DNA from: a virus
Length of the DNA: 27,558 bases
Virus genome (UHGV): UHGV-1805288
Reading direction: 5' to 3' (one strand)
Part shown: positions 5,506 to 25,863 of the stretch, one piece after another
How the letters are laid out: every line of letters begins with the position of its first letter
Numbering within the stretch: position 1 is the first letter of the stretch
Program-made: the position numbers and the translations under genes
The notes under the pieces: model-generated
Told to the model about the DNA's origin: nothing
The model's database searches: none
What the model saw: only the letters and a program-made list of their open reading frames with translations

Positions 5506-5534
5506 ATTATACCATATTTTCTGTATTTTGTCAA
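5506..5534 (-). promoter_or_regulatory. sigma70-type promoter, perfect TTGACA-N17-TATAAT, upstream of dnaE
   Basis: Plus strand shows attata at 5506..5511 and tgtcaa at 5529..5534 with a 17-nt spacer; on the minus strand that is -35 TTGACA and -10 TATAAT about 40 nt upstream of the dnaE start. Confidence 0.6.
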
Positions 5535-5539
5535 TTTTA

Positions 5540-6730
5540 TTACTTTTTAATTAATACCAATTTATCTTTGGCACGAGTAATAAGTGTGTAGAGATAACGT
5601 TTATGGGTTTCTTTATCGGATGGGTAACTTTCTTCAAAACCCAAAACTTTATCATATTCACTACCTTGTGCTTTCCAACAGGTAATAGCATAAGCATACG
5701 CAAAATCAAGTGGTGGATCTAAACGTGCTTGTTCTGAATTTTTTTTCATGCGATAGATTTGCGGGCCAGTTAGCGTTTGCTAACCAGTTAGAAGTTGTTT
5801 ATAATCAATACCAAGATTTGTAAATTGATTACTTATATCATCAATATGAATATCAGTCCACATATACTATATAGGTTGAGAAATTAACCAACGAGGGAAA
5901 TAGGCAGTCTACACTTTATAATTATCAATGATACCAATAGTGCCATTTGTTAGTGCATCGCCATTAGTAGATACAATATCCCAGTTATTATGTAAACCAA
6001 TTACTTTGTCTCCAATAGCAGGACGATTAGATGGATAACCTTTCTAAGCGCGGACTACATTATTGATCATTGTGCGAGTATCATTTCGTGCGCAAATTAC
6101 CTAATCCGCCCATTGATACATCCCTGCTGTAATTTGATTATTAGCATAAATCTATACTTGGTCATTAGTGCCCCTATATGTATCTAATAAATTGCCATTT
6201 CGTATCCACATTGATAAACGAATAATTTCGCTATCTTGTGCCTGTCGCATTATTTCATCTAGAAAAACATGTGGATGGTCAAGCACATGATTATCTTCAT
6301 CTTCATCAATGGGCGGAAGCTAGCCCGGGTCTCCAGCCGCGATTACATAAGGATGATGTGAAAGTAGTAATTTCCACATTGTTTTAGGGAGCATAGAGAT
6401 TTCATCAACTACTACTATTGGATATTTAATACTAGGACGAGGTTCAAATTTATATCCACCATTCGGCATTTGGCTAGCTTTATAAAGGAGTTTATGTGCA
6501 GTAATAGCATTAGGACATCCTTTCTATTGGAGAACTGTAGCCGCTTTACCAGTAAAGGCTACATAACATACATCTTCTTCGGGGTCAACTTCTAATGCGG
6601 AAATGATAAATTTAATCAGGGTGCTCTTGCCACTTCCTGCGTAACCTCCTATACAAGTATATAATTCTCCGGCTCGATAACGCTCCACTGCGGTCCGTAA
6701 TCCTTCTTCTTGTTTTTTAGTTAATATCAT
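5540..6730 (-). CDS. SF1 DNA helicase, RecD/Dda/Pif1-like
   Basis: Track ORFs 6524..6730 and 5540..5749 are in one frame; the 774 nt between contain 8 in-frame TAG and no TAA/TGA. Walker A GGYAGSGKST; motif II VVVDEISML; motif III AAGDPG-TAG-LPPI; C-terminal ITCWKAQGSEYD and LYTLITRAKDKL. Start ATG 6730; stop TAA 5540..5542. Confidence 0.8.
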
Positions 6731-6960
6731 TAACCATGTTCTCCGATTGCTTCATCAAGGATTTGAATAAAACGCATTACATCTCTTTCATATAAATCTT
6801 TTGCTTTATGATGAGCTTCTTGCCGACTAATATTATATTTTAACATTAAATCATTTACTTCTGCTTCACAAGCTTTATATCTAGCTAACTAATATCTATA
6901 TACAATACTATCAAACATATAGCCTTTCATATGCTTTTCTATATTTTTTAAATTATTCAT
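6730..6960 (-). CDS. small hypothetical protein (76 aa), one in-frame TAG
   Basis: ATG at 6960..6958 with GGAGAAGAATA upstream. Translation MNNLKNIEKHMKGYMFDSIVYRY-TAG-LARYKACEAEV...IGEHG. Stop TAA overlaps the helicase ATG (TAATG). Confidence 0.45.
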
Positions 6961-6983
6961 TATTCTTCTCCAATAAAATCATT

Positions 6984-7301
6984 TTAATTAATAGTATTTA
7001 AATCATCTAAATTAATTGTTTGTTGCTTAACCTCTTCATCAGGAGTATAAAAAATAAATTCGCCATTCCTAAAAGAGCAAATATGTTTATTACCTTTTCC
7101 GCCGTAAATTTCTAAATCACTTCTTGAATTTGAGTTTTCGGAGGTTTCGTTTGTTTCCGGTCGGTCAGGTTCAAAAAATGTTTTCTACGTTAATTGTGCC
7201 CATTCTACAGCTTTTTCTTGAAACTCTGTCATGGTAATACCAACATTGCCTAATGCTCGCTAAACTGCGGCAATAGTTTCTAAAAATTCATTATTAACCA
7301 T
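6984..7301 (-). CDS. hypothetical protein (105 aa), two in-frame TAG
   Basis: ATG at 7301..7299 with GGAG 8 nt upstream. Translation MVNNEFLETIAAV-TAG-RALGNVGITMTEFQEKAVEWAQLT-TAG-KTFFEPDRPETNE...LNTIN. Stop TAA 6984..6986. Confidence 0.5.
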
Positions 7302-7327
7302 TATTTTTCTCCATATATGAAAATAAG

Positions 7328-23344: not shown

Positions 23345-25240
23345 TTACACAAAATTAAAACCAAGGGTTGTAGCATTTTCATAAATATACTGCTTACGAG
23401 GATTCACATTAGGCCCTTCAAGAATATCAAGAAGTTTAACTGTAGCCTCAGCATCACTAACAGTTAAGCGCTTATAACGCTGATTATCAAAACAAATCTC
23501 CTTGAGGGTGGCCGCATTCAGCTCACCGAGACCTTTCGCACGCAAGAGGTCATAAGAACCTGTATGACTAGCTTTCCAATCGTCAAGTTCCTTTTCACTA
23601 TAACAAAAATATTCTTTGTCTTTTTGTTTGATAATATACAGCGGAGTTATAGCTCGATATAATTTACCTGCTTCGACAAGGGGTCTCATATAAGTATAAA
23701 AGAAGGTAATTAATAGTAACTCAATAGCCGCGCCATCTGAATCTTGATCTGAAGTAATAATAATTTTATCAAAATTCATCTTATTGACATCAAAATTATT
23801 ACCAAATCCAGCGCCAATTACTCGAATAATATCACTAATCTCCTGATTAGCTAAAAGTTTTTCAAGAGATTGTTTTAGAGGACTAATAATTTTACCTCTT
23901 AAAAGGTAAATACAATCAGTCTTTACATTACGAGCTTCAACCGCTGAAGTAGCTGCTGACTTGCCCTCAACTAGAAGTAAATTGCGTTGAGAAGGGTCTT
24001 TATTAACACAATCAAAAAATTTATCACTAATAGCCATTTTAGCCTTTAAACCTTTTTCTTTAGGCTGACGAACAGCTTCCTTAGCCTTTTTAGCTTTCTC
24101 GCGTGCGGTTCGTGCTAATAAAGCTTTATCAATGATTGCTTTCGCATCTTTTGGGTTACTATTTAACCAGACTTTTAAATCTTTAGAAACCAATCTTTGA
24201 ACAGCGGTTCTAGCTTCACTACTGGATAAAACATCCTTAGTCTGACCTGAAAATACTGGATCAGGCATAATAAATGAAAGGACGAGACTTAAACCTTCTT
24301 TAAGCTCTTCACCAGTAATATTACTATCTTTATCTTTCAAAAGTTTATTATCTCGCGCGTATTCATTAATCGATTGAGTAAGTGCGGTGCGGAAACCAGT
24401 TAAATGAGTCCCACCACTATTGGGAATTGAATTTGTATAGAGTTTATAATTATCATTATAACTCTCATTATATAACATAGCAATTTTAACACCAATTCTA
24501 TCTTCCATATTTTCAGTATAAAAAATTGATGTTAATTTCTTTTTATTCTTATTAATATCTTCAATATAATCAAGGATACCATGTTGAGAAGTAATTACTT
24601 CTTCGGGTTTATCCTTGTATTTAAATTTAAATGTAAGACCAGGAGAGAGATAAGCTAACTCTTGAATTTGATTTCTAAGAGAAGTGTAATCAAGCTCAAT
24701 AGTTTCTTTAAAAATTTCAGCATCTGGTAAAAACTTTACCCAAGTACCAGTTTCTTTTCCAGCCCATTTTTCTTCTTTATAATCAATAAGTTTACCACGA
24801 ACGAATGAAGCAACTGCGTGTTTACCATCACGAAATGATACAACTTGAAAATGTTCAGATAAGGCATTAGTAGCTTTCGCACCAACACCATTCATACCAC
24901 CTGAAGTATTATAACCAGTTTTACCATTGCTATCAAACTTAGCACCAGTATGAAGCTTAGTATAAATATTTACAAGTGTTTCACTACCATCTTTCGCTTT
25001 GCCAAATGGCACACCACGTCCATTATCACGAATTTCAACATTATTATCTTTATCAATTATAATATCGCATTCAGTGCAATGACCATTTAAATATTCATCT
25101 ACACAATTTGAAATAATTTCAAGCGTAATATGTTTGATACCATCCGCGCCAATCGAGCCGATATACATACCAGGTCTGAGTCGAATCGCGTCAATACCCT
25201 CAAGAGTTTTTATTGATTTTACACCATAATCTTCTGACAA
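23345..25240 (-). CDS. gyrB: type IIA topoisomerase subunit B (GyrB/ParE-like)
   Basis: Track ORF, 631 aa, no in-frame TAG. GHKL ATPase motifs (LEGIDAIRLRPGMYIGS, NGRGVP, GGMNGVGAKA) and TOPRIM (LLLVEGKSAA, DQDSDGAAI). TTG start at 25240 with GGAGGAGG upstream. Confidence 0.9.
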   Translation of the reverse strand: MSEDYGVKSIKTLEGIDAIRLRPGMYIGSIGADGIKHITLEIISNCVDEYLNGHCTECDIIIDKDNNVEIRDNGRGVPFGKAKDGSETLVNIYTKLHTGAKFDSNGKTGYNTSGGMNGVGAKATNALSEHFQVVSFRDGKHAVASFVRGKLIDYKEEKWAGKETGTWVKFLPDAEIFKETIELDYTSLRNQIQELAYLSPGLTFKFKYKDKPEEVITSQHGILDYIEDINKNKKKLTSIFYTENMEDRIGVKIAMLYNESYNDNYKLYTNSIPNSGGTHLTGFRTALTQSINEYARDNKLLKDKDSNITGEELKEGLSLVLSFIMPDPVFSGQTKDVLSSSEARTAVQRLVSKDLKVWLNSNPKDAKAIIDKALLARTAREKAKKAKEAVRQPKEKGLKAKMAISDKFFDCVNKDPSQRNLLLVEGKSAATSAVEARNVKTDCIYLLRGKIISPLKQSLEKLLANQEISDIIRVIGAGFGNNFDVNKMNFDKIIITSDQDSDGAAIELLLITFFYTYMRPLVEAGKLYRAITPLYIIKQKDKEYFCYSEKELDDWKASHTGSYDLLRAKGLGELNAATLKEICFDNQRYKRLTVSDAEATVKLLDILEGPNVNPRKQYIYENATTLGFNFV

Positions 25241-25241
25241 T

Positions 25242-25751
25242 TTAATCCTCCTCCGTTCCTTTTAACAATACTTTTCTTATCATAACCATATCCATTATAT
25301 TAACTATATCTTCCGCACGTTTCTTTCCAGTAGCGAGCGCATCAGCTAACTCATTACCTTCATGTCCATTGTGCCCTCTAATTTTTCTTAAATCAATTTT
25401 ATATCCTTCTTGAAGAAGATTATAATAAGTCTGGATTAATTCTAAATTTTCTGGCGGTCGCTAGTCAGATTTAAGCCAGCCACGTCGCGCCCATCCATAC
25501 ATCCATTCATTAAACGTTGATACACAATATGAACTATCACTATAAACAATAGGAATTTCTTTATCTTTACCATAGTGAATTAATGCCCATAAAATAGCTT
25601 TAATTTCTTGAATATTATTTGTAGTATTTAATTCAAAATGTTGATAAGCATCAACAATTTCACCAGAAGAATTATAGACTACAACTCCAAACCCACCACT
25701 ACTATTAGCACGACCATTATTTTTAGCCGAACCATCAGTATAAATTATCAT
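25242..25751 (-). CDS. ribonuclease H (RNase HI-like)
   Basis: Track ORF 25461..25757 extends through TAG 25461..25463 to TAA 25242..25244. MTMIIYTDGSAKNNG...GGFGVVV...YSDSSY and downstream GHNGHEGNELADALA. ATG 25751 with AAAGGAG upstream. Confidence 0.8.
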
Positions 25752-25782
25752 AGTCAATTTTCTCCTTTATTTACTTATTTAT

Positions 25783-25811
25783 ATTATACCATAAATTTAA
25801 AAATTTGTCAA
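25783..25811 (-). promoter_or_regulatory. sigma70-type promoter, perfect TTGACA-N17-TATAAT, upstream of the RNase H-gyrB-gyrA string
   Basis: Plus strand attata 25783..25788 and tgtcaa 25806..25811, 17-nt spacer. Confidence 0.6.
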
Positions 25812-25834
25812 ATTTTATTGAGCTACAATAAAAT

Positions 25835-25863
25835 TTGACAGAAGGAAAAATTTTCAGTATAAT
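25835..25863 (+). promoter_or_regulatory. plus-strand sigma70-type promoter, perfect TTGACA-N17-TATAAT, back-to-back with the minus-strand promoter
   Basis: Plus strand ttgaca 25835..25840 and tataat 25858..25863, 17-nt spacer. No protein-coding ORF follows on the plus strand. Confidence 0.5.

What the first reader, a model, noticed from the sequence alone, without database searches (positions are those of the whole stretch)
5506..25863. Eight exact-spacing sigma70-type promoters, five of them perfect TTGACA-N17-TATAAT
Perfect consensus with exactly 17-nt spacing occurs on the minus strand at 5506..5534, 17417..17445, 19454..19482, 19706..19734 and 25783..25811, with near-perfect versions at 15158..15186 (TTGATT) and 20882..20910 (TTGACT) and one plus-strand copy at 25835..25863. 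All minus-strand copies sit in short intergenic gaps immediately upstream of a gene and often right after a hairpin. By a rough composition-based estimate, far fewer than one such perfect match is expected by chance in 27.5 kb, so these are very likely real host-RNA-polymerase promoters. They divide the one-strand gene array into transcription units.
Basis: seen in the sequence. Interest (0 to 1): 0.5.

Follow-up and report, generated by a model that had tools for sequence, protein, structure and literature searches.

The report
Consensus host promoters in recoded phage
Seven perfect or near-perfect bacterial housekeeping promoters, plus one pointing the other way, punctuate the DNA-replication genes of an uncultured gut phage distantly related to Bacillus phage SPbeta; they look real and are conserved in relatives but are an ordinary kind of signal, and the more unusual feature of the region is that the phage reads the stop codon TAG as glutamine.

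Summary
The window has six perfect TTGACA-N17-TATAAT sites, not five: five on the minus strand and one on the plus strand, against 0.04 expected. All seven minus-strand sites lie on the gene strand, 23-75 nt upstream of a start codon, within the 6.8% of the window that is non-coding. A matrix trained only on relatives ranks them as the top seven hits.

Relatives down to about 36-60% protein identity carry the same kind of site at the same gene junctions. Internal genes never do. The sites often carry the TG (-16) motif typical of Gram-positive promoters. The genes have strong Shine-Dalgarno sites, and every cultured relative infects Bacillota. Host sigma-A promoters are therefore the best reading.

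They define partly nested transcription units. Intrinsic terminators bound some units, and one terminator overlaps a -35 element.

Two points change the picture:
- The gene array is continuous only if TAG is read as glutamine (code 15).
- The plus-strand promoter has no gene. It is a mirror copy of its neighbour and points at about 90 nt ending in a bidirectional terminator.

This is an ordinary kind of element and a new member of a known class. No transcript data are available.

The parts
25783..25811 (-). Promoter P-RNaseH: TTGACA-N17-TATAAT with TGg before the -10. First promoter after the lysis cassette. It drives RNase H, GyrB and GyrA.
   Evidence: 30.6 bits. It sits 31 nt from the start codon. 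It is identical in L039, L044 and L061. Equivalent sites lie upstream of the RNaseH or GyrB orthologues in L023, L024, L027, L028, L029, L045 and L054.
25835..25863 (+). Antisense-strand promoter with perfect hexamers and an atypical spacer lacking TG. It stands back to back with P-RNaseH and has no gene downstream.
   Evidence: The matrix gives it only 11.1 bits. Its hexamers are conserved in L039, L044 and L061. An 18-nt-spacer equivalent sits in the same position in L049 and L054.
25782..25864 (.). 39-nt inverted repeat that makes the two promoters mirror copies. Its core is a perfect 15-bp palindrome, 25806-25840, that contains both -35 hexamers.
   Evidence: I1, 77% complementary, 5 nt between the arms; 25806-25840, 15 pairs.
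25870..25962 (+). Putative transcript of about 90 nt from the antisense promoter. About 40 nt of AU-rich 5' part (one short, weak hairpin predicted) is followed by the terminator hairpin.
   Evidence: MFE -33.3 kcal/mol, z = -8.6, dominated by the terminator stem. No Rfam family matches. The start site is inferred only.
25906..25965 (.). Bidirectional intrinsic terminator ending the lysis cassette (amidase and a 125-aa membrane protein). It would also end the antisense transcript.
   Evidence: (I20, 21-nt arms, 100% complementary).
20916..20943 (-). GC-rich hairpin after gyrA. It has no U-tract and lies immediately upstream of P-ligase.
   Evidence: the fold of the 93-nt gap.
20882..20910 (-). 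Promoter P-ligase: TTGACT-N17-TATAAT.
   Evidence: 20.0 bits. It sits 26 nt from the start codon. Equivalent sites lie between gyrA and the ligase gene in L024 (perfect), L044, L061 and L059, and directly after gyrA in L023 and L029, where no ligase orthologue was detected.
19706..19734 (-). Promoter P-g66: perfect hexamers with TGa before the -10. It overlaps the ligase stop codon.
   Evidence: 34.1 bits. In the alignment of 11 distinct upstream sequences the -35, the A-tract and the -10 are conserved.
19454..19482 (-). Promoter P-g89: perfect, and the best matrix score. It drives the 89-aa g89 gene.
   Evidence: 38.5 bits. Sites with 0-1 mismatch lie upstream of the g89 orthologues in many lineages.
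19076..19099 (-). Intrinsic terminator (10-bp stem, U-tract) after g89. It abuts the start codon of the TAG-rich GIY-YIG gene.
17417..17445 (-). Promoter P-g312: perfect hexamers. It drives g312 (YorF-like), g54 and the AAA_24/Sak4-like gene.
   Evidence: 33.3 bits. Equivalent sites are present in L023, L024, L029, L044, L059 and L061. SPbeta has TAGACA-N17-TATAAT upstream of yorE-yorF.
15182..15219 (-). Intrinsic terminator after the AAA_24 gene. Its 3' arm and U-tract form the -35 (TTGATT) of the next promoter.
   Evidence: The same terminator/-35 overlap is seen upstream of g192 orthologues in several lineages.
15158..15186 (-). Promoter P-g192: TTGATT-N17-TATAAT with TGt before the -10. 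It drives g192, DnaB (with its intron), primase, RecJ and the lysozyme-like gene.
   Evidence: 27.0 bits. TTGATT or TTGACT versions are conserved in relatives.
7328..7360 (.). Terminator-like 14-bp hairpin after the lysozyme-like gene. No consensus promoter follows it.
5506..5534 (-). Promoter P-polIII: perfect hexamers with TGg before the -10. It drives the DNA polymerase III alpha gene.
   Evidence: 28.8 bits. Of 61 PolIII-alpha orthologues, 19 have a perfect site, 16 have 1 mismatch and 15 have 2 mismatches. These sites lie 31-74 nt upstream of the start and make up 28 distinct promoter sequences.
269..305 (-). Intrinsic terminator after the polymerase gene.
24908..24936 (-). TTGATA-N17-TATAAT inside gyrB. 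It is probably not a promoter.
   Evidence: Its 15.6 bits fall below the shuffle maximum of 16.9. Its conservation in relatives is explained by conserved F-D-S and Y-N codons.

Best explanation
The seven minus-strand sites are strong promoters for the host's housekeeping RNA polymerase holoenzyme, sigma-A of a low-GC Gram-positive (Bacillota) host.

The proposed mechanism follows established knowledge of this promoter class. Sigma region 4.2 reads TTGACA. Region 2.4 reads TATAAT across the optimal 17-bp spacer. Region 3.0 reads the TG one base upstream of the -10 in five of the sites. Transcription would start about 7 nt downstream of the -10.

The sites let the phage recruit host polymerase without any phage factor. 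They re-initiate transcription along a 25-kb single-strand replication-gene array. Together with five intrinsic terminators and one hairpin without a U-tract, they give these partly nested units:
- RNaseH-GyrB-GyrA
- ligase
- g66
- g89
- g312-g54-AAA_24
- g192-DnaB-primase-RecJ-lysozyme
- PolIII-alpha

The plus-strand site is a mirror copy of the first promoter. It most likely makes a non-coding RNA of about 90 nt that ends at the bidirectional terminator of the lysis cassette.

Shown here: sequence, statistics, position and conservation. Inferred: polymerase binding, start sites, timing and host.
For: Statistics:
- The window has 6 perfect sites against 0.04 expected.
- At 2 mismatches or fewer there are 26 sites against 10.9 expected.
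- Across 174 related loci (2.83 Mb) there are 134 perfect sites on the gene strand (61 distinct sequences) and 14 on the other strand. Base composition predicts 2.4.

Position:
- All 7 sites are on the gene strand and within the 6.8% of the window that is non-coding.
- They lie 23-75 nt upstream of start codons that carry strong AGGAGG-type ribosome-binding sites.

Family:
- A 49-column matrix built only from relatives' sites ranks the 7 sites first to seventh at 20-38 bits. The shuffle maximum is 16.9.
- Shared features outside the hexamers are an A-run then a T-run in the spacer, TGn before the -10, and ATA after it.

Conservation:
- Sites with 0-1 mismatch lie upstream of the orthologues of g89, g66, g312, ligase, RNaseH/GyrB and g192, at protein identities down to about 40%.
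- They are present upstream of 35 of 61 PolIII-alpha orthologues, or 50 of 61 if 2 mismatches are allowed. The hexamers are kept and the spacers vary.
- None of 9-38 orthologues of each promoter-less gene (GyrA, AAA_24, DnaB, holin-like, amidase, GIY-YIG) has one.

Host:
- The closest cultured relatives by PolIII-alpha are SPbeta-like Bacillus phages and Enterococcus, Staphylococcus, Lactobacillus and Enterocloster phages.
- The window from g312 to PolIII-alpha is colinear with SPbeta yorF-yorL.

Terminators: hairpins with U-tracts bound several units.
Against: - There are no transcript 5' ends, polymerase-binding data or reporter data.
- The host is unknown and is inferred only from relatives and from the type of signal.
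- The A-run in the spacer is more conserved than sigma-A recognition alone requires.
- In SPbeta the analogous promoter regions (yorE, yorZ, yosX) share one 29-32-nt promoter-shaped element and lie under ChAP-seq peaks of the MrpR repressor. Extra regulation at the window's sites is therefore possible (PMC10516654).
- Two gene groups (GIY-YIG/g211 and g105/g76/RecD) follow terminators with no such promoter. The promoter set does not explain all transcription.
- The plus-strand copy has no gene, scores low on the matrix (11.1 bits) and is conserved only in some lineages.
- A general signal for 5'-terminal hairpins downstream of the sites is weak (mean z = -0.48).
Confidence: 0.85

Rival explanations
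1. The sites are composite promoter-operators. They are sigma-A promoters, but the repeated element, including the conserved spacer and the 15-bp palindrome at the divergent pair, is also the binding site of a phage regulator. That regulator would switch the whole set on or off together, as MrpR does at the SPBRE of SPbeta. This adds to the best explanation rather than excluding it.
For: - SPbeta has TAGACA-N17-TATAAT elements upstream of yorE and yorZ. A nearly identical 29-32-nt element lies upstream of yosX.
- These are among the promoter regions under MrpR ChAP-seq peaks that contain the SPBRE (PMC10516654).
- The yorE site is positionally equivalent to the window's P-g312.
- The spacer A-run/T-run carries 0.3-0.8 bits per position.
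- A perfect 15-bp inverted repeat covers both -35 hexamers at 25806-25840.
Against: - The spacers of the seven sites differ widely. Only an A/T pattern and TG are shared. The SPbeta copies, in contrast, are nearly identical over about 30 nt.
- The -35 here is the sigma-A consensus itself, not a deviant hexamer held by another constraint.
- No repressor gene is present in the window.
- The SPBRE sequence is not given in the text I could read, so no direct comparison was possible.
Confidence: 0.25
2. The sites are read by a phage-encoded sigma factor or phage RNA polymerase rather than by the host's housekeeping holoenzyme.
For: From my own knowledge, not tested here, large phages of Bacillota often encode their own transcription machinery. 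SPbeta's YonO polymerase is one example. The rest of this genome was not seen.
Against: - The hexamers, the spacing and the TG motif are exactly the housekeeping consensus.
- From my own knowledge, known phage sigma factors and phage polymerases use different signals.
- No sigma factor or polymerase gene is present in the window. The only sigma-related signals are sub-threshold Sigma70_r4 matches inside the two homing endonucleases.
Confidence: 0.04
3. The sites are chance matches in AT-rich intergenic DNA, or a repeated DNA element unrelated to transcription.
For: - The window has 31-32% GC.
- Loose promoter-like matches (at least 9 of 12) are no more frequent than in shuffles (80 against 81.6, and 82 against 68.9).
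Against: - Perfect matches exceed expectation about 150-fold.
- The sites show gene-strand bias, fixed distances to start codons and orthologous conservation in which only the hexamers, TG and A-run are kept.
- Similarity does not extend beyond about 40-55 nt around the sites.
Confidence: 0.01
4. The plus-strand copy (25835-25863) is a functionless by-product of an inverted duplication of the neighbouring promoter.
For: - It is one arm of a 39-nt inverted repeat with the minus-strand promoter.
- It has no downstream gene, lacks TG and scores low on the matrix.
- It is absent from several lineages (L003, L006, L010, L059).
Against: - Its hexamers stay perfect in L044 and L061 despite a spacer substitution.
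- A separately diverged lineage (L049, L054; GyrB 65-70% identical) has a perfect 18-nt-spacer antisense promoter in the same back-to-back position, again about 80 nt from a bidirectional terminator.
- The L024 group has a perfect antisense promoter in the same gap in a face-to-face arrangement.
Confidence: 0.3

Closest known systems
Sigma-A (sigma-70 family, group 1) promoters of Bacillota with the extended -10 / '-16 region' TG motif. The references I recall for this, not checked here, are Helmann 1995 and Voskuil & Chambliss 1998. The promoter elements are reviewed in PMC2613000.
   Same: TTGACA, a 17-bp spacer and TATAAT. TGn lies one base upstream of the -10 in 5 of 8 sites, and the full TRTG motif is present in 4 of 8. 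Several sites have A/T-rich DNA upstream. Position and distance relative to ribosome-binding sites and start codons also fit.
   Different: The density of perfect consensus matches is far higher than in cellular genomes. There is a recurrent A-run/T-run in the spacer. One -35 element is built from a terminator arm.
Host-polymerase 'early' promoters of large phages. Coliphage T5 and Bacillus phage SPO1 early promoters are examples from my own knowledge. The genome-based inference made for phage 7-11 (PMC4331800) is a further example.
   Same: Multiple near-consensus housekeeping promoters, stronger than typical host promoters, are placed upstream of early or replication genes. They are used to infer the transcription programme from sequence alone.
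   Different: These sites are spread through the replication module as re-initiation points rather than clustered at a genome end. The timing is unknown. The phage is uncultured and uses TAG as a sense codon.
SPBRE-containing promoters of Bacillus phage SPbeta (yorE, yorZ, yosX and others), which are bound by the master repressor MrpR (PMC10516654).
   Same: The replication module is homologous and colinear (yorF-yorL). A repeated promoter-shaped element of about 30 nt has an A-rich spacer and TATGnATATAAT. One copy lies at the equivalent junction, upstream of yorE-yorF, which corresponds to g312 here.
   Different: In SPbeta the -35 is TAGACA and the copies are nearly identical. There are only two such sites in 41 kb, and repressor binding has been shown. 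Here the -35 is the consensus, the spacers vary, no repressor is known, and whether the phage is temperate is unknown.
TAG-to-glutamine (code 15) recoded gut phages. Examples are the bioRxiv survey 10.1101/2021.08.26.457843 and phAss-1 and its relatives (PMC10607447).
   Same: In-frame TAGs lie inside conserved domains, TAG is never used as a stop, use is uneven between genes, and the relatives come from the human gut.
   Different: Those papers do not discuss promoters; the word does not occur in either text. Here TAG is also used in replication genes that sit directly behind host-type promoters. No suppressor tRNA lies in this window.

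Membership tests
Sigma-70/sigma-A housekeeping promoter (-35/-10 class) | -35 hexamer close to TTGACA | tested here: met
   Six sites are perfect, one is TTGACT and one is TTGATT.
Sigma-70/sigma-A housekeeping promoter (-35/-10 class) | -10 hexamer close to TATAAT | tested here: met
   All 8 sites have TATAAT.
Sigma-70/sigma-A housekeeping promoter (-35/-10 class) | Spacer of 17 +/- 1 bp | tested here: met
   All 8 sites have exactly 17 bp.
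Sigma-70/sigma-A housekeeping promoter (-35/-10 class) | Located upstream of a gene, in its orientation, at a plausible leader distance | tested here: met
   All 7 minus-strand sites lie 23-75 nt from a start codon that has a Shine-Dalgarno site. The plus-strand site does not meet this test because it has no gene.
Sigma-70/sigma-A housekeeping promoter (-35/-10 class) | Extended -10 TGn, typical of Gram-positive promoters | tested here: met
   Five of 8 sites in the window have it. TG is the most informative spacer position in relatives, at 1.0-1.7 bits.
Sigma-70/sigma-A housekeeping promoter (-35/-10 class) | Transcription start 6-9 nt downstream of the -10 | not testable with these tools
   No transcript data are available. 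The indirect test for 5' hairpins was weak.
Sigma-70/sigma-A housekeeping promoter (-35/-10 class) | Bound and used by the host holoenzyme, in a host that uses this consensus | not testable with these tools
   The host is unknown. All cultured relatives infect Bacillota, and the Shine-Dalgarno sites are strong.
Sigma-70/sigma-A housekeeping promoter (-35/-10 class) | Conservation at orthologous positions beyond the neutral expectation | tested here: met
   Internal genes act as negative controls, with 0 of 9-38 orthologues carrying a site.
Intrinsic (factor-independent) terminators bounding the units | GC-containing stem-loop followed by a U-tract on the transcribed strand | tested here: met
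   Met at 25906-25965, 19076-19099, 15182-15219, 7328-7360 and 269-305. The hairpin at 20916-20943 lacks a U-tract.
SPBRE / MrpR operator of SPbeta-like phages | 15-bp SPBRE motif within the promoter region | not testable with these tools
   The motif sequence is not in the accessible text. The only comparison possible was with the shared promoter-shaped element at yorE, yorZ and yosX.
SPBRE / MrpR operator of SPbeta-like phages | MrpR-like repressor (tyrosine-recombinase fold) encoded by the phage | not tested
   None is present in the window. The rest of the genome was not examined.
Genetic code 15 (TAG = Gln) phage | In-frame TAGs inside conserved protein domains, with ORFs restored when TAG is read as sense | tested here: met
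   Minus-strand ORF coverage rises from 18.1 kb to 27.1 kb. Pfam domains span the TAGs in RecJ, RecD, the amidase and the GIY-YIG protein.
Genetic code 15 (TAG = Gln) phage | TAG corresponds to glutamine | tested here: met
   Gln is the majority aligned residue at 12 of 33 TAG sites and is invariant at several. Position 25463 is TAG in the window and CAG in four contigs that are about 98% identical.
Genetic code 15 (TAG = Gln) phage | TAG not used as a terminator | tested here: met
   All 28 complete genes called end in TAA or TGA.
Genetic code 15 (TAG = Gln) phage | Suppressor tRNA with anticodon CUA | tested here: inconclusive
   No tRNA is found in the window or within 10 kb of gyrB in 34 related loci. 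The genome is about 188 kb, so the gene may lie elsewhere.

The most novel reading that the evidence does not exclude
The host-type promoters and TAG recoding may together form a two-layer timing device. Transcription from the consensus promoters would be available from the moment of DNA entry. Only the TAG-free units could then be translated at once: RNaseH-GyrB-GyrA, ligase and PolIII-alpha, which together carry 2 TAG among 98 Gln-type codons.

TAG-bearing genes behind equally strong promoters carry 71 TAG among 215 Gln-type codons. They would have to wait for a suppressor tRNA. The GIY-YIG nuclease gene is doubly gated, by a terminator and by 9 TAGs, and carries 4-14 in-frame TAGs in most of the relatives examined. 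The conserved antisense promoter at the boundary between the lysis cassette and the early genes would add an RNA of about 90 nt to this switch.
Probability: 0.2. Interest if true: 0.6.

Novelty: new member of a known kind. Interest (0 to 1): 0.3.

Why it matters
On their own the promoters are textbook elements. Their practical value has three parts.

First, they point to a host. Consensus sigma-A promoters with TG motifs, together with strong Shine-Dalgarno sites, indicate a Bacillota host for an uncultured TAG-recoded gut phage. Many recoded gut phages described so far have been assigned to Bacteroidota, whose promoters differ.

Second, they give a testable transcription map for a large clade of gut phages with genomes of roughly 100-200 kb. 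The replication module of this clade is SPbeta-like.

Third, they show that in this lineage TAG codons sit in genes directly behind host-type promoters. That bears on the idea that recoding mainly delays late genes.

These very strong, compact promoters, and the overlapping terminator/promoter module, could also serve as parts for expression in Gram-positive bacteria.

Tried and rejected
- **Chance or composition.** Rejected by shuffles and by composition-based expectations.
- **Looser promoter scans.** The generic scan at 9 of 12 or better is not enriched. Only the near-perfect class is informative.
- **Further family members.** The matrix scan finds no additional intergenic members with a 17-nt spacer. 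The gyrB-internal site (15.6 bits) and the amidase-internal site were set aside as coding-constrained or chance.
- **A longer repeat.** Similarity among copies stops within about 40-55 nt around the sites.
- **Close DNA relatives among isolated phages.** None was found. An exact-protein look-up gave only contigs of 7.3 kb or less from the same phage.
- **Known RNA families.** The whole-window Rfam scan at gathering thresholds returned nothing. A local scan of the antisense-transcript region gave only hairpin artefacts.
- **5'-terminal stabiliser hairpins as a proxy for start sites.** The signal is weak overall (mean z = -0.48). Hairpins do start about 8 nt after the -10 of P-g89 in many lineages.
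- **Function of the promoter-proximal small proteins g66 and g89.** There were no significant hits in Pfam, PHROGs, NCBIfam or PDB sequences.
- **A simple rule that promoter-proximal genes lack TAG.** Rejected. g66, g89, g312 and g192 each carry 1-4 TAGs.
- **A suppressor tRNA near the region.** Not found.
- **The SPBRE sequence.** It could not be retrieved from the paper's text.

Full report
**1. Observation**

An exact search finds six perfect TTGACA-N17-TATAAT sites in the 27.6-kb window. Five are on the minus strand (5506-5534, 17417-17445, 19454-19482, 19706-19734, 25783-25811) and one is on the plus strand (25835-25863). Dinucleotide-preserving shuffles give a mean of 0.04 and never more than one.

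All eight have a 17-nt spacer.

The generic scan for looser matches (at least 9 of 12) is not enriched over shuffles. The signal lies entirely in the near-perfect class.

**2. The gene map needs a different genetic code**

Under the standard code the minus strand looks full of gaps. Reading TAG as sense raises minus-strand ORF coverage from 18.1 kb to 27.1 kb. It also joins fragments into full-length genes, for example RecJ with 12 in-frame TAGs, RecD with 8 and the amidase with 8.

Several results support TAG = glutamine:
- Pfam domains run across the TAGs.
- TAG aligns most often with Gln in relatives, and with invariant Gln at several sites.
- Position 25463 is TAG in the window but CAG in four contigs that are about 98% identical.
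- No gene ends in TAG.
- Among in-frame stops inside homologous segments of relatives, 573 are TAG, 6 are TAA and 1 is TGA.

With this code the window is a single-strand array. Its order is amidase, a 125-aa membrane protein, RNase H, GyrB, GyrA, ATP-dependent ligase, g66, g89, a coiled-coil GIY-YIG protein, g211, g312, g54 and AAA_24/Sak4-like. It continues with g192, DnaB (interrupted), g55, primase, g103, RecJ, a lysozyme-like protein, g105, g76, RecD and DNA polymerase III alpha (interrupted). Only 6.8% of the window is non-coding.

**3. Position of the sites**

All seven minus-strand sites fall in that 6.8% or overlap the last codons of the upstream gene. They lie 23-75 nt upstream of a start codon preceded by an AGGAGG-type ribosome-binding site.

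The hairpin context is as follows:
- P-ligase follows a GC-rich hairpin.
- The -35 of P-g192 (TTGATT) is formed by the 3' arm and U-tract of the terminator of the preceding unit. This explains its deviation from the consensus and is conserved in several lineages.
- P-RNaseH lies about 95 nt after the long bidirectional terminator that closes the lysis cassette.

Further terminators follow g89 (19076-19099), the lysozyme-like gene (7328-7360) and the polymerase gene (269-305).

Two gene groups follow terminators without any promoter of this type: GIY-YIG/g211 and g105/g76/RecD. They must depend on read-through or on an unrecognised signal. The units are therefore nested re-initiation units rather than clean operons.

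**4. The sites form a family beyond the hexamers**

Aligned, the sites share an A-run then a T-run in the spacer and TGn directly before the -10 (5 of 8). Four of the eight have the fuller TRTG form known, from my own knowledge, as the Gram-positive '-16 region'. They also share ATA after the -10.

A 49-column matrix built only from sites in relatives ranks the seven minus-strand sites first to seventh in the window, at 20.0-38.5 bits. The maximum over 50 shuffles is 16.9. The gyrB-internal match scores 15.6 and the plus-strand site 11.1. The repeat finder recovers the same sites independently (families D1, D3, D4, D7).

**5. Relatives**

No isolated phage is close at the DNA level. By PolIII-alpha protein the nearest cultured phages are SPbeta-like Bacillus phages (about 36% identity). 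Enterococcus EF1/VRE9, Staphylococcus, Lactobacillus and Enterocloster phages follow. All of them infect Bacillota. The stretch from g312 to PolIII-alpha is colinear with SPbeta yorF-yorL.

Public viral and metagenome contigs gave 174 related loci with 36-98% protein identity, mostly from contigs of 100-200 kb from gut samples.

Across these loci, perfect sites number 134 on the gene strand (61 distinct sequences) and 14 on the other strand. Base composition predicts 2.4.

The sites recur at the same junctions:
- upstream of g89, g66, g312, ligase, g192 and the first gene after the lysis cassette;
- upstream of PolIII-alpha in 35 of 61 orthologues at 0-1 mismatch, and in 50 of 61 at 2 or fewer, 31-74 nt from the start codon, as 28 distinct sequences that keep the hexamers, TG and A-run while the rest drifts.

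None of 9-38 orthologues of each promoter-less gene (GyrA, AAA_24, DnaB, the membrane protein, the amidase, GIY-YIG) has a site with 1 mismatch or fewer within 250 nt. This positional conservation with sequence turnover is the strongest argument for function that is available without experiments.

**6. Mechanism**

The best-supported reading (confidence 0.85) is the ordinary one: these are strong promoters for the host's housekeeping sigma-A holoenzyme. The consensus hexamers, optimal spacing, TG motif, strong Shine-Dalgarno sites and the Bacillota hosts of all cultured relatives fit together. They also argue against a Bacteroidota host, whose promoters have a different consensus according to my own knowledge.

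Such sets of near-consensus host promoters upstream of early or replication genes are well known in large phages. They have been used to infer infection programmes from sequence (PMC4331800; elements reviewed in PMC2613000). Polymerase binding, start sites and timing are inferred, not shown.

**7. Rival: promoter plus operator**

In SPbeta, two near-consensus sites (TAGACA-N17-TATAAT) lie upstream of yorE and yorZ. A nearly identical element of about 30 nt lies upstream of yosX. These are among the promoter regions bound by the master repressor MrpR at the 'SPBRE' (PMC10516654). The yorE site is positionally equivalent to P-g312.

The window's sites could therefore also carry a regulator site. 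The recurrent spacer pattern and the perfect 15-bp palindrome covering both -35 hexamers at 25806-25840 leave room for that. Against it, the spacers here vary far more than the SPbeta copies, the -35 is the sigma-A consensus itself, and no repressor gene is in the window. I rate it 0.25, as an addition to the main explanation rather than a replacement.

Recognition by a phage sigma factor or polymerase (0.04) and chance (0.01) are poorly supported.

**8. The plus-strand copy**

The plus-strand site is one arm of a 39-nt inverted repeat with P-RNaseH. It has no gene downstream. It points at about 90 nt that end in the bidirectional terminator of the lysis cassette. No Rfam family matches.

Its hexamers are intact in near-identical contigs and in L044 and L061. 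A separately diverged lineage (L049, L054) has a perfect antisense promoter with an 18-nt spacer in the same back-to-back position, about 80 nt from its own bidirectional terminator. The L024 group has a perfect antisense promoter in the same gap, but face to face with the sense promoter. Other lineages lack it.

A small antisense-strand RNA at the late/early boundary is plausible but unproven.

**9. Promoters and recoding**

TAG use is very uneven:
- RNaseH, GyrB, GyrA, ligase and PolIII-alpha together have 2 TAG among 98 Gln-type codons.
- All other genes together have 71 TAG among 215 (Fisher p = 1.6e-11).

However, g66, g89, g312 and g192, each the first gene behind a consensus promoter, carry 1-4 TAGs. 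There is thus no simple rule that promoter-proximal genes are free of TAG.

In more distant relatives the region is almost TAG-free. The exception is the GIY-YIG gene, which carries 4-14 in-frame TAGs in most lineages. In the window it directly abuts the g89 terminator and has neither a promoter nor a Shine-Dalgarno site.

A layered control is the most novel reading that the data allow: constitutive host-type transcription with translation gated by the suppressor tRNA. It is speculative (probability about 0.2).

The survey of recoded phages and the phAss-1 paper do not discuss promoters; the word does not occur in either text.

**10. Verdict**

The elements are an ordinary, well-known kind, new members in an uncultured, TAG-recoded, SPbeta-like gut phage clade. 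Interest is 0.3, and most of it comes from the context rather than from the promoters themselves.

Noticed in passing
window 1-27558, minus strand: The whole window is written in code 15 (TAG = Gln). ORF coverage rises from 18.1 kb to 27.1 kb when TAG is read as sense. Pfam domains span the TAGs, TAG aligns with conserved Gln, and no gene ends in TAG. No suppressor tRNA is present in the window.
   Followed up: yes
window 25463 (RNase H codon 97) compared with L039-L042: The codon is TAG in the window and CAG in four contigs that are about 98% identical. This is a direct TAG/CAG polymorphism within one phage population.
   Followed up: yes
window 18091-19065 (-), and orthologues in L003-L061: A protein with an N-terminal hydrophobic stretch (probably a transmembrane helix), a long helical (probably coiled-coil) region and a GIY-YIG nuclease domain has 9 in-frame TAGs here. 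It has 4-14 in most relatives (2-3 in the L024 group, none in a few lineages), including phages whose neighbouring genes have none (340 of the 573 TAGs counted). Its start codon abuts the g89 terminator, with no promoter and no Shine-Dalgarno site.
   Followed up: partly
window 20949-25240, 19731-20855, 306-5463 (-): GyrB, GyrA, ligase and PolIII-alpha are almost free of TAG. With RNase H they have 2 TAG among 98 Gln-type codons, against 71 among 215 elsewhere (Fisher p = 1.6e-11). The same genes are TAG-free in relatives.
   Followed up: partly
window about 12144-13255 (-): DnaB is interrupted by a group I intron (Rfam RF00028, 59.9 bits against a gathering score of 50, at 12144-12441). The intron carries a LAGLIDADG homing endonuclease ORF (12396-13226). 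The whole-window Rfam scan at gathering thresholds missed it; only the local scan found it.
   Followed up: partly
window 1731-2925 (-); L096 3255-3575: A GIY-YIG homing endonuclease gene (1912-2730), flanked by structured RNA of about 190 nt on each side, splits the PolIII-alpha gene. In relatives the gene is continuous. In the 98%-identical contig L096 an endonuclease sits at a different position in the gene (after residue 456). No Rfam intron hit was found here.
   Followed up: partly
window 25782-25965: Two back-to-back consensus promoters form a 39-nt inverted repeat. Its 15-bp perfect palindrome holds both -35 hexamers. The antisense promoter would make an RNA of about 90 nt ending at the bidirectional terminator. 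The arrangement is conserved in L044, L061, L049 and L054, and is face to face in the L024 group.
   Followed up: partly
window 19118-19387 (-): g89 is an 89-aa acidic protein, possibly with a helix-turn-helix. Its GC content is 49% in a 32% GC genome. It is 80-82% identical in phages whose GyrB is only 59-70% identical. It sits between the best-scoring promoter and a strong terminator. No family or structure match was found.
   Followed up: partly
window 15132-15137 (-): g192 appears to start at ATA, 8 nt after an AAAGGAGG site and directly after an in-frame TAA-TTT. The codon aligns with ATG in several relatives, and other relatives have a TTG two codons upstream.
   Followed up: partly
window 15158-15219 (-), and upstream of g192 orthologues in L036, L046, L089, L090: The terminator and promoter overlap. 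The 3' arm and U-tract of the terminator supply the -35 (TTGATT) of the next promoter. This compact design is conserved across lineages.
   Followed up: partly
window 24908-24936 (-), and L044, L049, L054, L061: TTGATA-N17-TATAAT inside gyrB is retained in relatives despite synonymous changes in the spacer. The hexamers coincide with conserved F-D-S and Y-N codons, so coding constraint probably explains the conservation. An internal promoter cannot be excluded.
   Followed up: partly
L045/L058 about 3560-4620; L049/L054 about 4250-4880: In some relatives, extra genes are inserted between the lysis-cassette terminator and gyrB. One is aminotransferase-like by its sequence motifs (not tested) and the other is unknown. 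Each has its own promoter-like site. This junction appears to be a hotspot for gene insertion.
   Followed up: no
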